Source of the DNA: a virus
Lineage: Duplodnaviria; Heunggongvirae; Uroviricota; Caudoviricetes
Direction: 5' to 3' (one strand)
IMG/VR virus record: IMGVR_UViG_3300042564_003265
DNA length: 23,860 nucleotides
The notes under the pieces are model-generated. The model was not told where the DNA came from. It saw only the letters and a list, made by a program, of their open reading frames with translations, and did not search any database. The stretch's first letter is position 1; the number at the start of each line of letters is the position of its first letter. Made by a program: the position numbers and the translations under genes. Positions 14,400-23,860 of the stretch are shown here, piece after piece.

Positions 14400-14510
14400 A
14401 AATTCTGGAAAATTTTTAAATCACTTTTAGGGGTCATTCCCCTTTTTTAGATTTTTTTCCGGAAAAATTTCAGTTACGGCATTGTCCCCCCTATTCAGAC
14501 ACCCTAAATA

Positions 14511-14575
14511 CCCTTATATAAGGGGGGATACGGGAGGGGGGAGGGGGTACCTACGGGGTAGGTAGGGGTATAGGG
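14511..14575 (+). other. G-tract cluster (putative G-quadruplex) with palindromes
   Basis: Seven runs of 3-6 G in 14522-14575; perfect palindrome CCCTTATATAAGGG (14511-14524); TACCTAC-ggg-GTAGGTA (14548-14564). Confidence 0.7.
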
Positions 14576-14588
14576 ACCGGTAGACATT
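14576..14588 (-). repeat. 13-bp box, single copy (unit 0)
   Basis: ACCGGTAGACATT, reverse complement of the box consensus AATGTYYWMCRGY. Confidence 0.7.
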
Positions 14589-14662
14589 CGGTTGAGGATT
14601 TTGTCCACGGGGGTCAGTCCTTATTTAGACTGAAAATAAATTAAAAAATAATTGGTCAATCG

Positions 14663-14694
14663 TTTGGTATTCTCATATAACCTTAATACATTTA
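14663..14694 (+). promoter_or_regulatory. Cassette promoter
   Basis: TTTG-N20-TACATTTA. Confidence 0.75.
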
Positions 14695-14724
14695 CATATC
14701 GTTTCACACTAACCACTAAACGTT

Positions 14725-15087
14725 ATGAACAAAACACACATCTTCTTACTCCGTACAAGTGTTGGAATCACTATCGACTTTGAAGTGAACACCAAAGGTC
14801 AATTCGACCACATCAGTTTTTCCACCGAAAACGAGTTCTTAATGGAGGACGAAGAGTTTGATGATTGGGGTCAAGAAGTAAGAGAGGAGTATGAATCCCT
14901 TTTGAAGTACTTGGTAAGAGAAGGGGTAATCAAAGTCGAATTAGACTTGGAACACGAGGGAATGAAAATGGTTACTATCGGGACTATCGAAGTTCTCAAA
15001 TCGGGTTACATTGTCGAATATGAATATCTCGAAGGAGGGACTTGGTTTAAGGACAAGTCGGTACACGAACACCGACTACCTTACTAA
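14725..15087 (+). CDS. Acidic hypothetical protein (0 Ala)
   Basis: 120-aa ORF between promoter and terminator. Confidence 0.85.
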   Translation: MNKTHIFLLRTSVGITIDFEVNTKGQFDHISFSTENEFLMEDEEFDDWGQEVREEYESLLKYLVREGVIKVELDLEHEGMKMVTIGTIEVLKSGYIVEYEYLEGGTWFKDKSVHEHRLPY

Positions 15088-15093
15088 CGAAAG

Positions 15094-15120
15094 GAGGAAC
15101 GGAAGTTCCTCTTTTTTTTT
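15094..15120 (+). terminator. Intrinsic terminator
   Basis: GAGGAAC-GGAA-GTTCCTC plus U9. Confidence 0.85.
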
Positions 15121-15163
15121 ATTTGTTTATATCAAAAAAAATGTTGTCGTCAGGACTGACAAA

Positions 15164-15214
15164 GATGTTCACCGGTTATTTGGTCGGTGGAAGTCATTTA
15201 ACCGGTGGACATTT
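15164..15214. repeat. Inverted box pair
   Basis: GATGTTCACCGGTTA (15164-15178) and AACCGGTGGACATTT (15200-15214). Confidence 0.8.
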
Positions 15215-15273
15215 TCGTGGGACGAATCCGAAAAAAATGTGGATAACTATGTGGAAAAGTTTTGACCAAATTA

Positions 15274-15305
15274 TTAGGATATATGGATTATATTATTTTA
15301 CTTTG
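15274..15305 (+). promoter_or_regulatory. Cassette promoter with no gene of its own
   Basis: TTAG-N20-TTACTTTG. Confidence 0.65.
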
Positions 15306-15379
15306 TATTGTTGTTGAGGGGGTAAGGAAATAAGGTTAAAAAAAATTAACATTTCTTAACAAAACTTTAACACCAAATA

Positions 15380-15411
15380 TTAGGTTATATCAGTTATATT
15401 GACTTATTTTG
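15380..15411 (+). promoter_or_regulatory. Cassette promoter
   Basis: TTAG-N20-TTATTTTG. Confidence 0.7.
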
Positions 15412-15444
15412 TTTCATCGTTTAACACTTAAATAAATAAACACT

Positions 15445-16053
15445 ATGTCTAATCAAGTAAAAAACATCGTATCAGTACCTAACAATGAGTGGGTATCAGT
15501 AGTAGGAGAAGTATTATCAGTAGTTAATAACCCTACATTCAGTTCCTTTGTATCAAAGGTAAAAGTGAAAATGAATCAGTACCTTGATTATTGGGTAATC
15601 AATGAAGAGGGTAAGAAGAAAAAGAATCCAAACCCTACAAGGAATCCTTACTACGATGAGGGTATTATCAACCACTCTCGTAAAGTTCAAATTAACACAG
15701 GTTTTGACTATGTTAAGAGTGTTAATAGAAGATTGGAAAATGAGGGTAAGGAGAGTGATTTTGAAGGACAAGATAATTGGTTTGAGGTTATCAGTAAGGG
15801 TTTGGTAACCGACAAGAGTACAAGAACAAAATTGTACTTCCGTTATCAGTACCTTAACACAAGTACACAAGACCAAGAGTTCTTGTTTCAAGGTAACCAA
15901 ATTGAAAAGAACTTATTTGAAAGTTTTATGAGTGAGAGTACAAAGTATGAGAATCAAGGGTTGGACAATCCACTACAATTCCAAGTGTGTGATTTGAACA
16001 ATATCTTAAAGATAACAATAGGTGGAACAACCTATGAGAGAGAGTTAGTATAG
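15445..16053 (+). CDS. Phage hypothetical protein (0 Ala in 202 aa)
   Basis: ORF track; KMN...NPYY...DY pattern shared with the 23490 gene. Confidence 0.85.
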   Translation: MSNQVKNIVSVPNNEWVSVVGEVLSVVNNPTFSSFVSKVKVKMNQYLDYWVINEEGKKKKNPNPTRNPYYDEGIINHSRKVQINTGFDYVKSVNRRLENEGKESDFEGQDNWFEVISKGLVTDKSTRTKLYFRYQYLNTSTQDQEFLFQGNQIEKNLFESFMSESTKYENQGLDNPLQFQVCDLNNILKITIGGTTYERELV

Positions 16054-16074
16054 TGTGAATAGTTTAACAACTGA

Positions 16075-16105
16075 AAGGGGTGTAGAAATACACTCCTTTT
16101 TTTTT
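16075..16105 (+). terminator. Intrinsic terminator
   Basis: AAGGGGTGTA-GAAA-TACACTCCTT plus U-tract. Confidence 0.85.
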
Positions 16106-16142
16106 GTCTTACGGAACAACGAGTCGGAGGAAGACGGGTCGG

Positions 16143-22075: not shown

Positions 22076-22138
22076 CGTCTGGTTCGGAGCTGGTCGTTCT
22101 GTTGGTCAAAAAATAATTTAAAAATAGTTGGTCAAAAA

Positions 22139-22170
22139 TTTGGTTATATCATTTATATTGTTTTACTTTG
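22139..22170 (+). promoter_or_regulatory. Cassette promoter
   Basis: TTTG-N20-TTACTTTG. Confidence 0.75.
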
Positions 22171-22191
22171 TGGTGTAATAAAATATATGGT

Positions 22192-22695
22192 ATGACAAAC
22201 ATTGATAAATTTATTGAACAACAACGAGAATTTGTACTACGAGTGTTTAAAGGTGAAGGTGAACTACAACCTATCTTATGTTTCCTAACTGAAAAGGAAG
22301 GTAAGTTGGGTACGAGTTTTTGTCCAATACCTACTGAACTTATGAATGATGAAGGTAAGGATATTATTAGGTACCAATTAATTGAACAAGTTAAAAGTGT
22401 AATTAAAGGTCAAGGTCACAAACTACTATGTGTGAATTGGAATAGTGAGGGGTGGATGTACCAAAGTTCAAAAGAACAATTAGAAGAAGTGAATGGTCAC
22501 TACCGAAAGTTACCAAGAACGGAAGTGTTGTTAATGTCCTTTGATACTGAAAGTGGTAGTCAAGTTATTACCTACGAAATTAAAAGAAATCTATCGGTCG
22601 GTGAAGACGGACTGAATGAAGAAGTTGAAGTAGAACTTATGGAGTTGTCCAAGAATGTGACAAGTAAAGGTAGGTTTACTAAAATGTTTGATTAG
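22192..22695 (+). CDS. Phage hypothetical protein (SEGW motif; 0 Ala)
   Basis: 167 aa from ATG 22192. Confidence 0.85.
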   Translation: MTNIDKFIEQQREFVLRVFKGEGELQPILCFLTEKEGKLGTSFCPIPTELMNDEGKDIIRYQLIEQVKSVIKGQGHKLLCVNWNSEGWMYQSSKEQLEEVNGHYRKLPRTEVLLMSFDTESGSQVITYEIKRNLSVGEDGLNEEVEVELMELSKNVTSKGRFTKMFD

Positions 22696-22721
22696 TGTTT
22701 TTTGTTTACTCATTAGTTTAG

Positions 22722-22755
22722 AAAGGGGTAGGAATTTTTCCTACTCTTTTTTTTT
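22722..22755 (+). terminator. Intrinsic terminator
   Basis: AAAGGGGTAGGAA-ttt-TTCCTACTCTTT plus U-tract. Confidence 0.85.
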
Positions 22756-22788
22756 GTCCAAGAACCTGATTCTGTCCCGTCCTGGTGG

Positions 22789-22819
22789 AATGTTCAACAG
22801 CTTTCGCCGTTACACATTT
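22789..22819. repeat. Inverted box pair (tight spacing)
   Basis: AATGTTCAACAGC-tttc-GCCGTTACACATTT. Confidence 0.85.
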
Positions 22820-22888
22820 GTCCCACTCTTCCGGGGAATTCACCTTCAAAAAATTTAACACTCTTTAACATTTTTTTAACTACAATTA

Positions 22889-22920
22889 TTTGGATATATC
22901 AATTATATTGTTTTACTTTA
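22889..22920 (+). promoter_or_regulatory. Cassette promoter
   Basis: TTTG-N20-TTACTTTA. Confidence 0.75.
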
Positions 22921-22953
22921 CACTATTAAATCACACACATAAAACACAAAAAA

Positions 22954-23238
22954 ATGGAAAGTAGAATTGTAGTAACACCACGAGGTGACTTCGGTCACGA
23001 TTGGAACTTGATTGTCGAAACAAACGACGGAGTAAAGAACTTTTATTTAGGTCAAGACGTAAAGTTTTGTAGTCGAGTATTAGGACTTACACCACGAGAA
23101 ATTGTCCACGAAATTGGAACGGGTGACTTCCGTAATGAAGAAAACTTAAAACTATTAGGTAACTTCATTAGTGAACAATTAGGTTTAGTCGAGGAATCGG
23201 TAAACGAATTGGAATCTTGGGAATTGTGTTGTCAGTAG
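22954..23238 (+). CDS. Phage hypothetical protein (0 Ala)
   Basis: 94-aa ORF; FYLGQDVKFCSRVLG. Confidence 0.85.
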   Translation: MESRIVVTPRGDFGHDWNLIVETNDGVKNFYLGQDVKFCSRVLGLTPREIVHEIGTGDFRNEENLKLLGNFISEQLGLVEESVNELESWELCCQ

Positions 23239-23257
23239 TAATTACTGAACTGAAAAG

Positions 23258-23283
23258 ACCTCAACGAAAGTTGGGGTTTTTTT
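23258..23283 (+). terminator. Intrinsic terminator, identical to 21977
   Basis: ACCTCAAC-GAAA-GTTGGGGT plus U-tract. Confidence 0.85.
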
Positions 23284-23318
23284 ATGTCAAGAACAACCTG
23301 AAGAAAATCCTGAGGGAG

Positions 23319-23362
23319 AAATGTTCAACAGCTTTCACACAACAAAAAAACCGGTAGACATT
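23319..23362. repeat. Inverted box pair
   Basis: AAATGTTCAACAGCTTT (23319-23335) and AACCGGTAGACATT (23349-23362). Confidence 0.85.
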
Positions 23363-23422
23363 GTTCTCCGAAGGTATCCCAAAAAATTTTAACACTTCTT
23401 AACATTTTTTTAACTACAAAAA

Positions 23423-23454
23423 TTTGGTGGTCTCATATCAATATATTACTTTTG
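23423..23454 (+). promoter_or_regulatory. Cassette promoter
   Basis: TTTG-N20-TACTTTTG, a consensus match. Confidence 0.8.
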
Positions 23455-23489
23455 TATTGTTAAATTATTAAACACTAAAAGTTACTACT

Positions 23490-23860
23490 ATGGTAAATCA
23501 AACTTTGTTAGTCGACTTCGATACTATGGTATCAGTATGTCGTGGAATCACGAAAGGTCAATTCGTGAATTTGTTTTCATCTACTAATGTTCGTATGAAC
23601 AAAGGTGGTCGTAAAGGTCTTAATGAGTATTATGACCAAGTTGTTAAACACGTTAAAGGTAACGTTCGTCCGTTATGTGACTACAAGTTACGTATGGATA
23701 ACGAGAACGAGAAACGTGGACTTGACGAACACGTGTTAGGTCGTAATAAAGTTGGTGGTCACGTGGACGAGGTTGGTTGTGTAACTCACAACGAGGGATT
23801 GAATCGTTATTACCTTATGTACGAGTTCTTCGAGAACGTTCGTGTAAAGGTGGACTACGA
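23490..23860 (+). CDS. Phage protein, probable paralogue of 15445; runs off the right edge (0 Ala in 123 aa)
   Basis: Not in the track. MVNQTLLVDF...TNVRMNKGGRKGLNEYYDQVVKH...LCDYKLRMDNENEKRG, open to the window end. Confidence 0.8.
   Translation, partial: MVNQTLLVDFDTMVSVCRGITKGQFVNLFSSTNVRMNKGGRKGLNEYYDQVVKHVKGNVRPLCDYKLRMDNENEKRGLDEHVLGRNKVGGHVDEVGCVTHNEGLNRYYLMYEFFENVRVKVDY

What the first reader, a model, noticed from the sequence alone, without database searches (positions are those of the whole stretch)
14481..23860. A 9-kb gene array purged of the GpC dinucleotide, at the cost of alanine
Seen (manual count): no GpC at all from 14481 to 16154 (about 1.67 kb). Only 5 GpC occur in about 5.8 kb of coding DNA, and all 5 are Ala codons. 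Across 18 proteins (about 1,900 aa) there are 5 Ala; 15 proteins have none, including the 202-aa and 167-aa ones. Left-arm proteins use Ala freely (more than 25 in 9756-10502). It is not a tRNA-Ala or amino-acid effect alone: AGC, TGC, GGC, CGC codons and G|C codon junctions are also absent, while CpG is common. Established: every Ala codon begins with GC. GpC sits inside many restriction sites (GCGC, GGCC, AGCT, TGCA, GCNGC, RGCY), and the MqsR toxin cleaves RNA at GC-containing triplets such as GCU. Inference: the earliest-expressed or first-injected genes evolve under selection against a GC-reading nuclease or modifier, from the host or the phage itself, strong enough to remove an amino acid from a sub-proteome. 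I do not know a described case of this.
Basis: partly seen in the sequence, partly recalled or inferred. Interest (0 to 1): 0.92.

Follow-up and report, generated by a model that had tools for sequence, protein, structure and literature searches.

The report
Early phage genes purged of GpC
A block of small early genes in an uncultivated giant T4-like phage has lost almost every GpC dinucleotide, and with it the amino acid alanine. The loss follows the boundaries of the transcripts, which points to an unknown factor that reads GpC in early messages or in DNA while it is transcribed.

Summary
Window 14481-23860 holds 28 GpC against about 273 expected. Positions 14481-16154 hold none against 54 expected. 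Eighteen proteins (about 1,900 aa) contain 5 Ala. NGC codons and G|C codon junctions are absent (0 of about 103 expected), while CpG is normal.

It is not a quirk of this window. The same pattern occurs in independent metagenome contigs of a clade of T4-like jumbo phages, probably of freshwater Bacteroidota. More distant relatives and the nearest isolates have normal GpC.

- **Genome-wide avoidance.** Synonymous GpC is about 0.2-0.3 of expectation throughout. The array is the extreme, not the only case.
- **The extra purge follows transcription units.** Coding sequence, leaders and terminator hairpins sit at 0.02-0.06 of expectation. The terminator-to-promoter spacers between them sit at 0.3-0.6 and hold nearly all surviving GpC, inside a conserved repeat element.

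This argues against first-injected DNA or restriction-site avoidance, and against neutral mutational decay. It favours selection acting through early transcripts, by a GpC-cutting RNase or by damage to transcribed DNA. The agent was not identified. I found no published description.

The parts
14481..16154 (.). Longest stretch with no GpC (1,674 bp)
   Evidence: 0 observed against 53.7 expected; CpG 44 against 53.7.
14438..14724 (.). Divergent control region between the left arm (- strand genes) and the array. It contains a G-rich tract at about 14500-14570 and the first promoter-like site at 14663-14693.
   Evidence: Sequence read. TTTG-N19-21-TANNTTT match.
14725..15087 (+). CDS, 120 aa, acidic. 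0 Ala, 0 GpC.
   Evidence: No family hit.
15445..16053 (+). CDS, 202 aa. 0 Ala, 0 GpC (17 expected). Member of a large phage family whose Ala count is bimodal.
16327..16599 (+). CDS, 90 aa, acidic. 0 Ala, 0 GpC.
16823..17116 (+). CDS, 97 aa (phrog_21015). 0 Ala. Where the window has YCSKW, several relatives have YCAKW.
17310..17516 (+). CDS, 68 aa. 0 Ala, 0 GpC.
17719..17964 (+). CDS, 81 aa, hydrophobic (membrane-like). 0 Ala.
18174..18374 (+). CDS, 66 aa, hydrophobic. 0 Ala.
18376..18708 (+). CDS, 110 aa. 1 Ala, which is 1 GpC (18451).
19023..19355 (+). CDS, 110 aa, with a weak FlbD-like N-terminus. 0 Ala.
19357..19503 (+). Small CDS, 48 aa, hydrophobic. 1 Ala (GCG at 19474).
19734..19949 (+). 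CDS, 71 aa. 0 Ala. Conserved in the depleted relatives sampled.
19959..20150 (+). CDS, 63 aa, hydrophobic. 0 Ala.
20297..20878 (+). CDS, 193 aa, with a lipoprotein-like signal. 3 Ala, which are 3 GpC (20450, 20627, 20729).
21117..21482 (+). CDS, 121 aa, DUF3846. 0 Ala.
21672..21962 (+). CDS, 96 aa, DUF6891, Cys-rich. 0 Ala.
22192..22695 (+). CDS, 167 aa. 0 Ala, 0 GpC (13 expected).
22954..23238 (+). CDS, 94 aa. 0 Ala.
23490..23860 (+). 5' part of a 171-aa CDS that is cut by the window end. 0 Ala so far.
16142..16196 (+). Spacer element, copy 1. It is a bipartite conserved repeat (left half ATGTCTWACAGCTTTC, right half AACCGGTGGACAT). The GpC lies in the left half.
16682..16736 (+). Spacer element copy
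17578..17614 (+). Spacer element copy (short form)
17980..18032 (+). Spacer element copy (ACAGCTTCC variant)
18802..18856 (+). Spacer element copy
19597..19633 (+). Spacer element copy (ACTGCTT variant)
20158..20210 (+). Spacer element copy
20966..21002 (+). Spacer element copy (right half in the CGCCGTTACACAT variant)
21565..21590 (+). Spacer element, left half only
22787..22822 (+). Spacer element copy
23318..23362 (+). Spacer element copy
1..14437 (.). Left arm, used as the comparator. It holds larger genes (a scaffold-like protein, sugar-nucleotide enzymes, a methyltransferase). GpC O/E is 0.54, synonymous GpC about 0.29, Ala 3.6%.

Best explanation
**What it is.** The array is the early accessory-gene block of an uncultivated T4-like jumbo myovirus, probably infecting a freshwater Bacteroidota host. 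It runs from about 14,650 to the window end and about 2.4 kb further in the source contig. It consists of small genes separated by repeat-rich spacers. Most genes are followed by an intrinsic terminator and preceded by one of two promoter-like repeats, one of which matches the host-type consensus.

**What happens to GpC.** The whole phage lineage is selected against the dinucleotide GpC.
- Across the genome this removes GpC wherever doing so is cheap, at synonymous and non-coding sites, down to about 0.2-0.3 of expectation.
- Inside early transcription units the selection is at least ten times stronger. It removes GpC completely from coding sequence, leaders and terminator hairpins.
- Every alanine codon starts with GC. 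The result is therefore an almost alanine-free early proteome, with Ala replaced by Ser, Pro, Thr or Gly.

**Proposed mechanism.** The extra purge stops at the terminator and resumes at the next promoter, so the agent acts through transcription. My best guess is an endoribonuclease that cuts at GpC. It could be a host defence or toxin RNase, or the phage's own host-shutoff RNase. Early messages would have to survive it before it is neutralised, so each GpC would carry a cost.

**Shown:** the depletion, its distribution across the clade, its genome-wide baseline, and its coincidence with transcription units.

**Inferred:** the early expression class, the host phylum, selection rather than mutation as the cause, and the RNA level. 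The nuclease itself is hypothetical.
For: 1. **Size of the effect.** 28 GpC against 273 expected in the right arm. In CDS, 5 against 167.5 expected, with 0 of 103 expected at synonymous positions.
2. **Independent replication.** Contigs L001-L005 come from other samples and carry an 88%-identical homologue of the 97-aa protein; their O/E is 0.07-0.12. L006/L007, L008-L015, L045 and the 287-kb genome G002 show the same array pattern.
3. **Clade specificity.** More distant homologue-bearing phages L016-L021, G007 and G008 have O/E 0.93-1.26. The nearest isolates (Flavobacterium phage immuto, Microcystis phage Mel-JY01) have 1.04-1.07.
4. **Genome-wide baseline.** In G002, synonymous GpC is 0.17-0.41 in all but one of the 10-kb bins outside the array and 0.04 in the array. 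In the + strand block 141.9-172 kb, GpC is nearly equal to the Ala count.
5. **Transcription-unit pattern.** Summed over the window, L001 and G002 arrays: CDS 37/628, leaders 1/20.7, 3'UTR plus terminators 1/54.9, spacers 90/241. CpG is about 1 in every class. Transcribed non-coding DNA against spacers gives P about 2e-10. In L001, all GpC of the array that I listed lie in or beside the spacer element. Terminator stems hold 4 against 49.7 expected.
6. **Selection rather than drift.**
   - Ala count in the 202-aa family is bimodal (0 against 4-22).
   - At least 4-5 switches between the two states sit on well-supported branches.
   - The sister proteins P0179 (10 Ala) and P0182 (0 Ala) lie on contigs with GpC O/E 0.96 and 0.04.
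   - Replacements at Ala-rich columns are Ser 22, Pro 17, Thr 16, Gly 7, Val 5.
7. **Early-gene anatomy and host type.**
   - TTTG-N19-21-TANNTTT sites: 19 against 4.9 expected, nine of them directly upstream of array genes.
   - SD-like 4-mers occur upstream of 3 of 38 genes.
   - 17 terminator-like sites against 5.3 expected.
   - G002 has a T4-type portal, terminase and sheath.
   - The best bacterial matches to G002's ClpB-like protein are Bacteroidia and Flavobacteriales.
8. **Precedents from the literature.**
   - Influenza PA-X cuts at GCUG in hairpin loops. The GC is the most important part of the site, and GCUG is under-represented in viral mRNAs (10.1101/2022.07.08.499385).
   - MqsR cuts G^CU (PMC8546651).
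Against: - No RNase, and no other GpC-reading protein, was identified in the window or its relatives.
- GpC is its own reverse complement. The usual strand test for an RNA-level effect is therefore impossible.
- Terminator stems, which are double-stranded in RNA, are purged as well. A strictly single-strand-specific RNase would not require that.
- Spacers are still at 0.3-0.6 rather than 1.0, and phage tRNA genes are at 0.5-0.72 against 0.95 in non-depleted relatives. A second, DNA-level or mutational layer therefore seems to exist as well.
- The purge is very uniform across 15 of 18 accessory genes. That is easier to explain if each GpC endangers the whole genome than if it only lowers the expression of one dispensable gene.
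- Early timing is inferred from anatomy, not measured.
- Three spacers lack an obvious terminator, so some motif GpCs may be transcribed.
Confidence: 0.4

Rival explanations
1. Transcription-coupled DNA damage. A host enzyme attacks cytosine (or the backbone) in a 5'-GC context on single-stranded DNA; for example, a GC-preferring ssDNA cytosine deaminase or a nuclease. Early after infection only the early units of the single parental genome are unwound by RNA polymerase. Any lesion there is inherited by the whole burst or breaks the genome. Every GpC in any early unit is therefore purged regardless of the gene's importance. Replication-associated exposure produces the weaker genome-wide depletion.
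For: - One agent explains both layers: the baseline of 0.2-0.4 everywhere, including spacers and tRNA genes, and about 0.02 in early units.
- It explains why terminator stems are not exempt.
- It explains the uniformity of the purge across accessory genes.
- A dinucleotide context is the natural specificity of polynucleotide deaminases (own knowledge: APOBEC3 TC/CC, AID WRC, DddA TC).
- GT is raised at the codon junction in the array (O/E 1.43 against 1.09 in the left arm) while AC is not (1.27 against 1.31). That is the direction expected for C-to-T changes on the coding strand.
Against: - My literature searches found no anti-phage DNA deaminase with GC preference.
- Replacements at former Ala columns are mainly Ser, Pro, Thr and Gly. 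Val, the product of GCN to GTN, is rare.
- In G002 both GT and AC rise at junctions, so the strand signature is weak.
- No deaminase or uracil-handling gene was sought or found in these phages.
Confidence: 0.22
2. Classical restriction avoidance of entering DNA. Hosts carry several restriction enzymes with GC-core sites (GGCC, GCGC, TGCA, GCNGC, RGCY). The region exposed or needed first is cleared of all of them.
For: - Site avoidance by phages and the special vulnerability of early-entering DNA are established (PMC12455610 and PMC10644984, listed).
- Relatives carry a SAM-lyase-like gene (faint to weak Pfam hits) downstream of the array, and G002 carries a C5 methyltransferase. R-M conflict is therefore plausibly relevant.
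Against: - All NGCN contexts are depleted in the array, not a subset.
- AGCT survives 11 times in the window array and 21 times in L001, once or more per spacer. The array DNA therefore stays cuttable.
- 3,744 GpC remain in G002, so avoidance cannot protect the duplex genome.
- The purge differs about 14-fold between adjacent non-coding classes. A duplex-DNA nuclease would not make that distinction.
- G002 has a T4-type portal and terminase, and the array is internal in contigs of 86.6 and 287 kb. Neither gives support for a fixed first-injected end.
Confidence: 0.1
3. Neutral mutational decay. The phage or host methylates cytosine in GpC, as the chlorovirus enzyme M.CviPI does. 5-methylcytosine deaminates to T, so GpC decays as CpG does in vertebrates. 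Fast-evolving accessory genes would simply be closest to equilibrium.
For: - Depletion is genome-wide and affects tRNA genes and spacers.
- G002 encodes a 305-aa C5 methyltransferase. Its best solved relatives are the short-TRD dinucleotide (CpG) enzymes DNMT3A/B.
- GT and AC are raised in the right arm (1.21 and 1.34 against 1.07 and 0.96).
- Sister lineages show CpG depletion instead (G008 at 0.19). Dinucleotide-specific processes therefore vary among these phages.
Against: - Neutral sites should then be equally depleted. Instead leaders and terminators are at about 0.03, adjacent spacers at about 0.37, and left-arm synonymous sites at about 0.29.
- Complete loss of Ala with conservative replacements needs selection.
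- The methyltransferase's specificity is unknown. It was found only in G002/G001 among the depleted records searched, most of which are fragments.
Confidence: 0.1
4. Obstructive template modification. Virion DNA carries a bulky modification at GpC that protects it but blocks host RNA polymerase. Early genes must be read from the modified parental copy, so they avoid GpC. Later genes are read from fresh, unmodified copies.
For: - It would explain both the transcription-unit pattern and the early-to-late gradient.
- The left arm encodes sugar-nucleotide-type enzymes (cupin, cytidylyltransferase-like, PfkB kinase, TylF-like methyltransferase) of unassigned role.
Against: - No DpdA/TGT or QueC gene is present in G002, G003 or G004.
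- The sugar genes could equally serve glycan synthesis.
- Nothing links them to DNA.
- The genome-wide synonymous depletion is not predicted.
Confidence: 0.08

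Closest known systems
Avoidance of a viral host-shutoff RNase site: influenza A PA-X and GCUG (10.1101/2022.07.08.499385)
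   Same: A short GC-centred RNA motif is depleted from viral messages, so an RNase that destroys other mRNAs spares them. Inserted sites are selected against.
   Different: - PA-X reads a tetramer in hairpin loops. The depletion is mild and does not change the proteome.
- Here a bare dinucleotide is removed completely, including from stems, at the cost of an amino acid.
- No RNase is known here.
Dinucleotide suppression in vertebrate viruses: CpG sensed by ZAP, UpA/UpU cut by RNase L (own knowledge)
   Same: A dinucleotide-level host factor shapes viral composition, with a cost per site and mostly through synonymous changes.
   Different: - The hosts are eukaryotes and the dinucleotides differ.
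- The depletion there is partial.
- It is not concentrated in one temporal class, and no amino acid is lost.
mRNA-interferase toxins with short sites: MqsR G^CU and MazF ^ACA (PMC8546651)
   Same: These are bacterial ribosome-independent RNases that read 3-nt motifs, one of them containing GC. Transcripts lacking the motif escape.
   Different: - The avoided word here is GC followed by any base, not GCU alone. GCC and GCA are absent, and GCG and GCT occur only in the five Ala codons.
- No MqsR-like gene was found or sought in a host.
- Toxins activated by host shut-off would be expected to hit late messages rather than early ones.
Restriction-site avoidance and protected early-entering DNA: T5/BF23 first-step-transfer region and Autographiviridae early regions (PMC10644984, PMC12455610)
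   Same: The part of the genome that must act first is the part most thoroughly cleared of target sequences.
   Different: - Those cases concern specific 4-8 bp sites in duplex DNA and a fixed injection order.
- Here all GpC contexts are affected and sites remain in every spacer.
- The relatives look T4-like, with no evidence of a fixed leading end.
CpG decay by methylation and deamination (vertebrate genomes; own knowledge)
   Same: A self-complementary CG/GC dinucleotide is depleted genome-wide. A dinucleotide-type C5 methyltransferase homologue is present in one relative.
   Different: Neutral decay cannot produce a 14-fold difference between adjacent non-coding classes, and it cannot remove conserved alanines.
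T4 early gene clusters (own knowledge)
   Same: Arrays of small, mostly unknown, individually promoted genes read by unmodified host polymerase, in a phage with T4-type head and tail genes.
   Different: To my knowledge, T4 early genes show no dinucleotide purge and have normal alanine content.

Membership tests
Restriction-site (palindrome) avoidance | The avoided words are the recognition sites of particular R-M systems, and other words with the same core are not avoided. | tested here: not met
   All NGCN tetramers are depleted in the array. Six (AGCC, GGCA, GGCC, GGCT, TGCA, TGCC) are absent. The least depleted are AGCT (11 observed / 29.3 expected), CGCG (3/7.9) and CGCC (3/6.3), and the AGCT copies all lie in the spacers.
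Restriction-site (palindrome) avoidance | Sites are reduced to near zero over the DNA that must survive cleavage. | tested here: not met
   23 GpC remain in the spacers of the window array. 3,744 remain in the G002 genome.
T5-like first-step-transfer / pre-early region | The region lies at a fixed genome end, in a long terminal repeat, and enters first. | tested here: inconclusive
   The array is internal in contigs of 86.6 kb (L042) and 287 kb (G002). G002 has a T4-type portal and terminase. True genome ends are unknown.
Methylation-deamination dinucleotide decay | Depletion is similar at all weakly constrained sites. | tested here: not met
   Leaders plus 3'UTRs: 2 observed against 75.6 expected. 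Spacers: 90 against 241. Left-arm synonymous sites: 49 against 168.
Methylation-deamination dinucleotide decay | A methyltransferase specific for the depleted dinucleotide is present. | not testable with these tools
   A C5 methyltransferase is present in G002/G001 and is DNMT3-like. Its target sequence cannot be read from the protein sequence.
RNA-motif avoidance against an endoribonuclease (PA-X, MqsR, MazF type) | Depletion is confined to transcribed sequence. | tested here: met
   Coding sequence, leaders and terminators are at 0.02-0.06. Terminator-to-promoter spacers are at 0.27-0.57 in five arrays. Transcript ends are predicted, not measured.
RNA-motif avoidance against an endoribonuclease (PA-X, MqsR, MazF type) | Depletion is on the mRNA-sense strand only. 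| not testable with these tools
   GpC is its own reverse complement.
RNA-motif avoidance against an endoribonuclease (PA-X, MqsR, MazF type) | A cognate RNase is identified. | tested here: not met
   Array proteins gave no nuclease family hit. The host is unknown.
T4-like early gene cluster | Small genes, each with a host-type promoter and a terminator, in a phage with T4-type morphogenesis genes. | tested here: met
   Promoter-like sites and terminators. In the relative G002: Portal_T4 at 3e-76, plus Terminase_6N and sheath domains. Expression timing was not measured.

The most novel reading that the evidence does not exclude
A clade of giant T4-like phages faces, or itself deploys, a nuclease or sensor that recognises the bare dinucleotide GpC in RNA or in transcription-exposed single-stranded DNA. 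This would be a prokaryotic counterpart of ZAP/CpG or PA-X/GCUG. The pressure is strong enough that the whole early proteome has been rebuilt without alanine. The only GpCs kept in the array lie in a conserved spacer element, which may be the factor's designated target.
Probability: 0.5. Interest if true: 0.92.

Novelty: new variant of a known kind. Interest (0 to 1): 0.85.

Why it matters
- **A new kind of nucleic-acid-targeting factor.** If a factor that reads a two-base word exists in bacteria or phages, it would be a new kind of nucleic-acid-targeting immunity or host shut-off.
- **A ready signature.** GpC-free islands could be used to find its carriers and their counter-measures in metagenomes.
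- **A natural experiment in protein evolution.** Dozens of protein families exist in both alanine-free and normal versions. They show how far a proteome can be pushed by a nucleotide-level constraint.
- **A marker for early genes.** The pattern marks early anti-host genes in uncultivated phages without expression data.
- **Practical use.** GpC-free coding might serve for cleavage-resistant transcripts if the factor turns out to be an RNase.

Tried and rejected
**Searches that found nothing close**
- Megablast of both arms against isolated phages gave no match.
- Single-protein scans of IMG/VR with the 385-aa and 202-aa proteins found no relatives. An alignment query then worked.
- No whole genome is held for the window. 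Metagenome records could not be searched whole, so the window's own genome beyond about 31 kb was not examined.
- Rfam found no known RNA in the window.
- An ESM Atlas look-up of the 202-aa protein gave no named neighbour.

**Ideas tested and dropped or downgraded**
- CpG methylation protecting CGC/GCG-context GpC. 15 of the 28 surviving GpC in the window overlap a CpG, as do all 5 coding ones. In L001 only 1 of 28 does, so the enrichment reflects which spacer motif a subclade carries.
- A missing tRNA-Ala as a clue. G002's 23 tRNAs cover every amino acid except Ala, but the depleted relative G004 does carry tRNA-Ala.
- 7-deazaguanine DNA modification. No TGT/DpdA or QueC genes were found.
- A phiKZ-like virion RNA polymerase. 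There was no RNA polymerase beta hit, and the structural genes are T4-like.
- Co-occurrence of a C5 methyltransferase with depletion. This is uninformative because most records are fragments.
- The T4 late-promoter word TATAAATA is not enriched in the window.
- A strand-specific mutational signature from GT and AC excess is suggestive in the window but not in G002.

**Differential gene content between depleted and non-depleted relatives** gave only a ParB/Srx-like protein and a few small ORFs. None is an evident nuclease.

**Literature.** Six searches found no description of GpC-free or alanine-free phage genes.

Full report
**1.

Counting on the window gives these figures.

| Region | GpC observed | GpC expected | O/E |
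|---|---|---|---|
| Whole window | 245 | 675 | 0.36 |
| 1-14480 (left arm) | 217 | 399 | 0.54 |
| 14481-23860 (right arm) | 28 | 273 | 0.10 |
| 14481-16154 | 0 | 53.7 | 0.00 |

CpG is normal (0.91 in the left arm, 0.96 in the right). The Poisson probabilities are about 2e-80 for the right arm and 5e-24 for the empty stretch.

I called 18 + strand genes using start codons, leaders and terminators. They hold 5,613 nt and about 1,900 residues. They contain 5 GpC, all of them alanine codons, and 15 of the 18 proteins have no alanine.

Against position-specific base frequencies:
- Codon positions 1-2: 5 observed against 65.8 expected.
- Positions 2-3: 0 against 57.2. AGC, TGC, GGC and CGC are all unused, against 48 AGT, 31 TGT, 88 GGT and 26 CGT.
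- The junction between codons: 0 against 46.2.

So the effect is on the dinucleotide, not on alanine as such. Base composition and codon usage cannot explain it.

**2. The array has a regular, modular anatomy**

Most units read as follows: gene, G+C-rich hairpin with a T run, a spacer of 60-120 nt, an A/T-rich promoter region, a G-poor leader, ATG.

Three intergenic regions lack an obvious terminator: after 16823-17116, after 17719-17964 and after 19959-20150. Two gene pairs abut with almost no spacer.

Evidence on host type:
- The word TTTG-N19-21-TANNTTT is the Bacteroidota housekeeping promoter consensus (own knowledge). It occurs 19 times against 4.9 expected, and nine copies lie directly upstream of array genes.
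- A second promoter-like repeat precedes the other genes (family D2).
- Shine-Dalgarno-like 4-mers occur upstream of only 3 of 38 genes. The array leaders are 4% G.

These features, together with hits discussed below, suggest a Bacteroidota host and transcription by host polymerase, that is, early genes. The timing is an inference.

The proteins are small. Several are acidic, several are membrane-like and one is lipoprotein-like. The only named families are DUF3846 and DUF6891, plus a weak FlbD-like match.

**3. Where the surviving GpCs are**

Of the 28 GpC in the right arm, 5 are alanine codons. The other 23 lie in the intergenic spacers.
- 20 lie downstream of a terminator and upstream of the next promoter.
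- 3 lie in the intergenic regions without an obvious terminator.

Eleven are AGCT. Ten of these sit in a recurring word, ACAGCTT. That word is the left half of a bipartite element: left half ATGTCTWACAGCTTTC, a variable gap of up to about 20 nt, then right half AACCGGTGGACAT. It is present in nearly every spacer.

In 18 aligned copies from the window and from L001, 17 positions are invariant. The pattern is sequence conservation rather than clear covariation, so I read it as a protein-binding site rather than a proven hairpin.

**4. The pattern is replicated in independent samples and defines a clade**

The 97-aa protein (16823-17116) has metagenomic homologues at 56-88% identity, almost all with 0 or 1 alanine.

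| Contigs | Relation to the window | GpC O/E |
|---|---|---|
| L001-L005 (other samples) | 88% homologue, same array, same ACAGCTT element | 0.07-0.12 |
| L006/L007 (L006 from a 190-kb contig) | more distant | array bins mostly 0.03-0.4 |
| L008-L015 (IMG/VR, up to 287 kb) | more distant | array bins mostly 0.03-0.3 |
| L045 (from a 278-kb contig) | more distant | array bins about 0.03-0.1 |
| L016-L021 | 35-41% homologue | 0.93-1.26 |
| G007 and G008 (complete-scale records) | non-depleted relatives | 0.93 and 1.01 |
| Flavobacterium phage immuto, Microcystis phage Mel-JY01 | nearest isolates by portal protein | 1.04 and 1.07 |

In the more distant depleted contigs, the surviving GpCs sit in a different spacer inverted repeat.

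Contig L042 (86.6 kb) is 99.99% identical to window 11117-23860. It shows the GpC-free block continuing about 2.4 kb past the window end. After that, alanine and some GpC return.

**5. The avoidance is genome-wide; the array is its extreme**

In the window's left arm, synonymous-type GpC is 15/85 at positions 2-3 and 34/83 at junctions. Alanine is 3.6%.

I fetched the 287-kb relative G002 whole.
- Overall GpC O/E is 0.56.
- Synonymous-site GpC is 0.17-0.41 in all but one of the 10-kb bins outside the array. The exception is 30-40 kb, at 0.89.
- It falls to 0.04 at 140-150 kb and 0.13 at 150-160 kb.
- In the whole + strand block 141.9-172 kb, the number of GpC in a gene almost equals its number of alanines.
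- Alanine-rich structural genes keep their alanines but have almost no synonymous GpC, for example 0 against 8.3 expected in an ORF with 14.7% Ala.
- Phage tRNA genes are mildly depleted too: 0.5-0.72 against 0.95 in non-depleted relatives.

G002 has a T4-type portal (3e-76), a T4-type terminase domain, a tail sheath and a ClpB-like ATPase. The best bacterial matches to that ATPase are Bacteroidia and Flavobacteriales MAGs at 53-56% identity, only slightly above other phyla.

**6. The extra purge follows transcription units**

I classified array sequence into four classes and summed over the window, L001 and G002.

| Class | GpC observed | GpC expected | O/E |
|---|---|---|---|
| Coding sequence | 37 | 628 | 0.06 |
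| 30-nt leader | 1 | 20.7 | 0.05 |
| Stop codon to end of terminator T run | 1 | 54.9 | 0.02 |
| Everything else (spacers and promoters) | 90 | 241 | 0.37 |

CpG is about 1 in all four classes. In the window alone the figures are 5/167.5, 0/4.3, 0/13.4 and 23/77.6.

At the spacer rate, the transcribed non-coding classes should hold about 28 GpC. They hold 2 (P about 2e-10).

In L001, all of the array's GpCs that I listed lie in or beside the spacer element. That includes the seven that are not part of the conserved word. The spacers are therefore genuinely relaxed, not merely holding a few constrained positions.

Terminator stems in five arrays hold 4 GpC against 49.7 expected.

The spacer level (0.3-0.6) is close to the genome-wide synonymous level. 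The picture therefore has two layers: a baseline everywhere, and a further purge of tenfold or more inside early transcription units.

**7. Selection, not drift**

The 202-aa protein (15445-16053) belongs to a large phage family, with 223 hits at 50% clustering.

Among 144 full-length representatives:
- 25 have no alanine.
- 8 have 1-3.
- 111 have 4-22.

The alanine-free members fall in one part of the tree but are interleaved with normal members. Well-supported branches force at least 4-5 changes of state.

One sister pair illustrates this:
- P0179 has 10 Ala and P0182 has none.
- They lie on contigs with GpC O/E 0.96 and 0.04.
- P0036 (13 Ala, 44% identical to the window protein) sits in a similar small-gene array with O/E 1.07.

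At columns where normal members usually have alanine, alanine-free members carry Ser 22, Pro 17, Thr 16, Gly 7 and Val 5. These are function-preserving choices, not the Val expected from simple C-to-T decay. In the 97-aa family, the window has YCSKW where several relatives have YCAKW.

**8. What the agent could be**

*Duplex-DNA restriction or first-injected DNA fits poorly.*
- All tetranucleotide contexts are avoided.
- Sites remain in every spacer, and thousands remain in the genome.
- The relatives are T4-like, with the array internal in long contigs.

*Neutral methylation-driven decay fits poorly.* It cannot explain the contrast between leaders or terminators and adjacent spacers, nor the conservative loss of alanine. 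It could still contribute to the baseline.
- G002 encodes a 305-aa C5 methyltransferase. Its closest solved relatives are the DNMT3 catalytic domains, which read a dinucleotide. Its target is unknown.
- The non-depleted relatives show CpG depletion instead: G008 at 0.19 and G007 at 0.55.

*Two transcription-linked models remain.*

(a) A GpC-cutting endoribonuclease, either host-encoded or phage-encoded for host shut-off. There are literature precedents.
- PA-X of influenza A cuts GCUG in hairpin loops. The GC is the most important part of the site, and the motif is under-represented in viral messages.
- MqsR cuts G^CU.

(b) A GC-context enzyme acting on single-stranded DNA opened by transcription of the single parental genome.
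- In favour: this would explain the uniformity of the purge across dispensable genes. It would also explain the lack of exemption for stems, and the baseline, with one agent.
- Against: I found no described anti-phage example.

I rank (a) slightly ahead because of its precedents, but the data here cannot separate them. GpC is its own complement, so strand tests are impossible.

*Also tested and not supported:* 7-deazaguanine modification, a phiKZ-type polymerase, and a tRNA-Ala explanation.

**9. Candidate factors**

I compared gene content between depleted and non-depleted relatives. The comparison singled out a 248-aa protein just downstream of the array, at L042:18844-19590.
- It is 75% identical between the window lineage and G002.
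- It is present in every depleted subclade sampled.
- It gave no tblastn hit in the non-depleted set.
- It carries a DGQHR motif.
- It matches ParB/KorB/Noc/sulfiredoxin folds weakly. The PDB profile hit has E 0.002. The best Foldseek match has E 1e-3, on a model with mean pLDDT 66.6.

It is a DNA-binding-type protein of unknown role. Nothing ties it to GpC.

**10. Novelty**

Six full-text searches found no description of GpC-free or alanine-free phage gene sets.

The concept is known: a virus avoiding a short word that a nucleic-acid-targeting factor reads. The dinucleotide, the organism group, the restriction to early transcription units, and the loss of an amino acid from a sub-proteome all appear to be new.

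Noticed in passing
window 14500-14570: A G-rich tract with runs of 4-6 G separated by 2-7 nt. It lies in the divergent region between the left arm and the array, just upstream of the first array promoter. It could form a G-quadruplex. Its role is unknown.
   Followed up: no
window 16142-23362 (11 copies, listed under parts); L001 (about 15 copies, 4 of them inverted): A bipartite conserved element in the terminator-to-promoter spacers: left half ATGTCTWACAGCTTTC, a variable gap of up to about 20 nt, then right half AACCGGTGGACAT. 17 positions are invariant in 18 copies. Other subclades carry a different inverted repeat at the same place (AGCGGAACAA...TTGTTCCGCT in L006; TTTTGTGGCKGAT...GCCACAAAA in G002). 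It is probably the binding site of a lineage-specific regulator.
   Followed up: partly
window array promoters: 14663, 16270, 17665, 18107, 18920, 19682, 21060, 21617, 23423 (class 1); 15250, 15356, 16747, 17231, 20264, 22115, 22865 (class 2): There are two distinct promoter-like repeat families in front of array genes. One matches TTTG-N20-TANNTTT. The other is built around GGATATATGGATTATATTGTTTTACTTTG. Genes behind both are equally GpC-free.
   Followed up: partly
G008 (L067-L076), G007 (L046-L056), L041: Relatives that are not GpC-depleted are CpG-depleted instead: G008 at O/E 0.19, G007 at 0.55, Flavobacterium phage immuto at 0.54. G008 carries a full-length 396-aa C5 methyltransferase. 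Different lineages of these large phages seem to suppress different CG/GC dinucleotides.
   Followed up: no
G002 81.7-89.0 kb (L026:1744-8990): A block of 23 tRNA genes covers 19 amino acids, all except alanine. The depleted relative G004 has 25 tRNAs including Ala, so this is not a clade feature. tRNA genes of depleted phages have GpC O/E 0.5-0.72, against 0.95 in non-depleted relatives.
   Followed up: yes
L042:18844-19590; G002 158871-159614 (L029:18871-19614): A 248-aa ParB/Srx-like protein with a DGQHR motif is unusually conserved among the depleted phages (75% identity between subclades). It gave no tblastn hit in the non-depleted set examined.
   Followed up: partly
G002 37170-40622; 213767-221339; 237951-239039: A few ORFs in the GpC-avoiding genome have normal or excess synonymous GpC, for example 43 against 24.7 expected in a 1,150-aa ORF. 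They may be recent acquisitions that have not yet adapted.
   Followed up: no
window 2607-4123 and 6261-6890: A cluster of sugar-nucleotide-type genes (cupin, cytidylyltransferase-like, the C-terminal half of a PfkB kinase) and a TylF/CmcI-type methyltransferase. A TylF-like gene also sits inside the array of L006/L007. The target, glycan or DNA, is unknown.
   Followed up: no
L006:17121-17843, L007:7691-8413, L045:12027-12821: A DUF3293 gene with faint to weak S-AdoMet-lyase Pfam hits lies downstream of the array in relatives. If it is a SAM lyase, it would be an anti-restriction function of the T3 SAMase type (own knowledge).
   Followed up: no
L077 (JBIPPH010000034.1, 21.8-kb contig of a 'Bacteroidia' MAG, isolate name ME2015-07-03): This is among the best bacterial matches (53%) to G002's ClpB-like protein. 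The MAG's sample number is close to those of the window's own contig and several relatives. The contig may be either a host gene or a mis-binned phage fragment.
   Followed up: no
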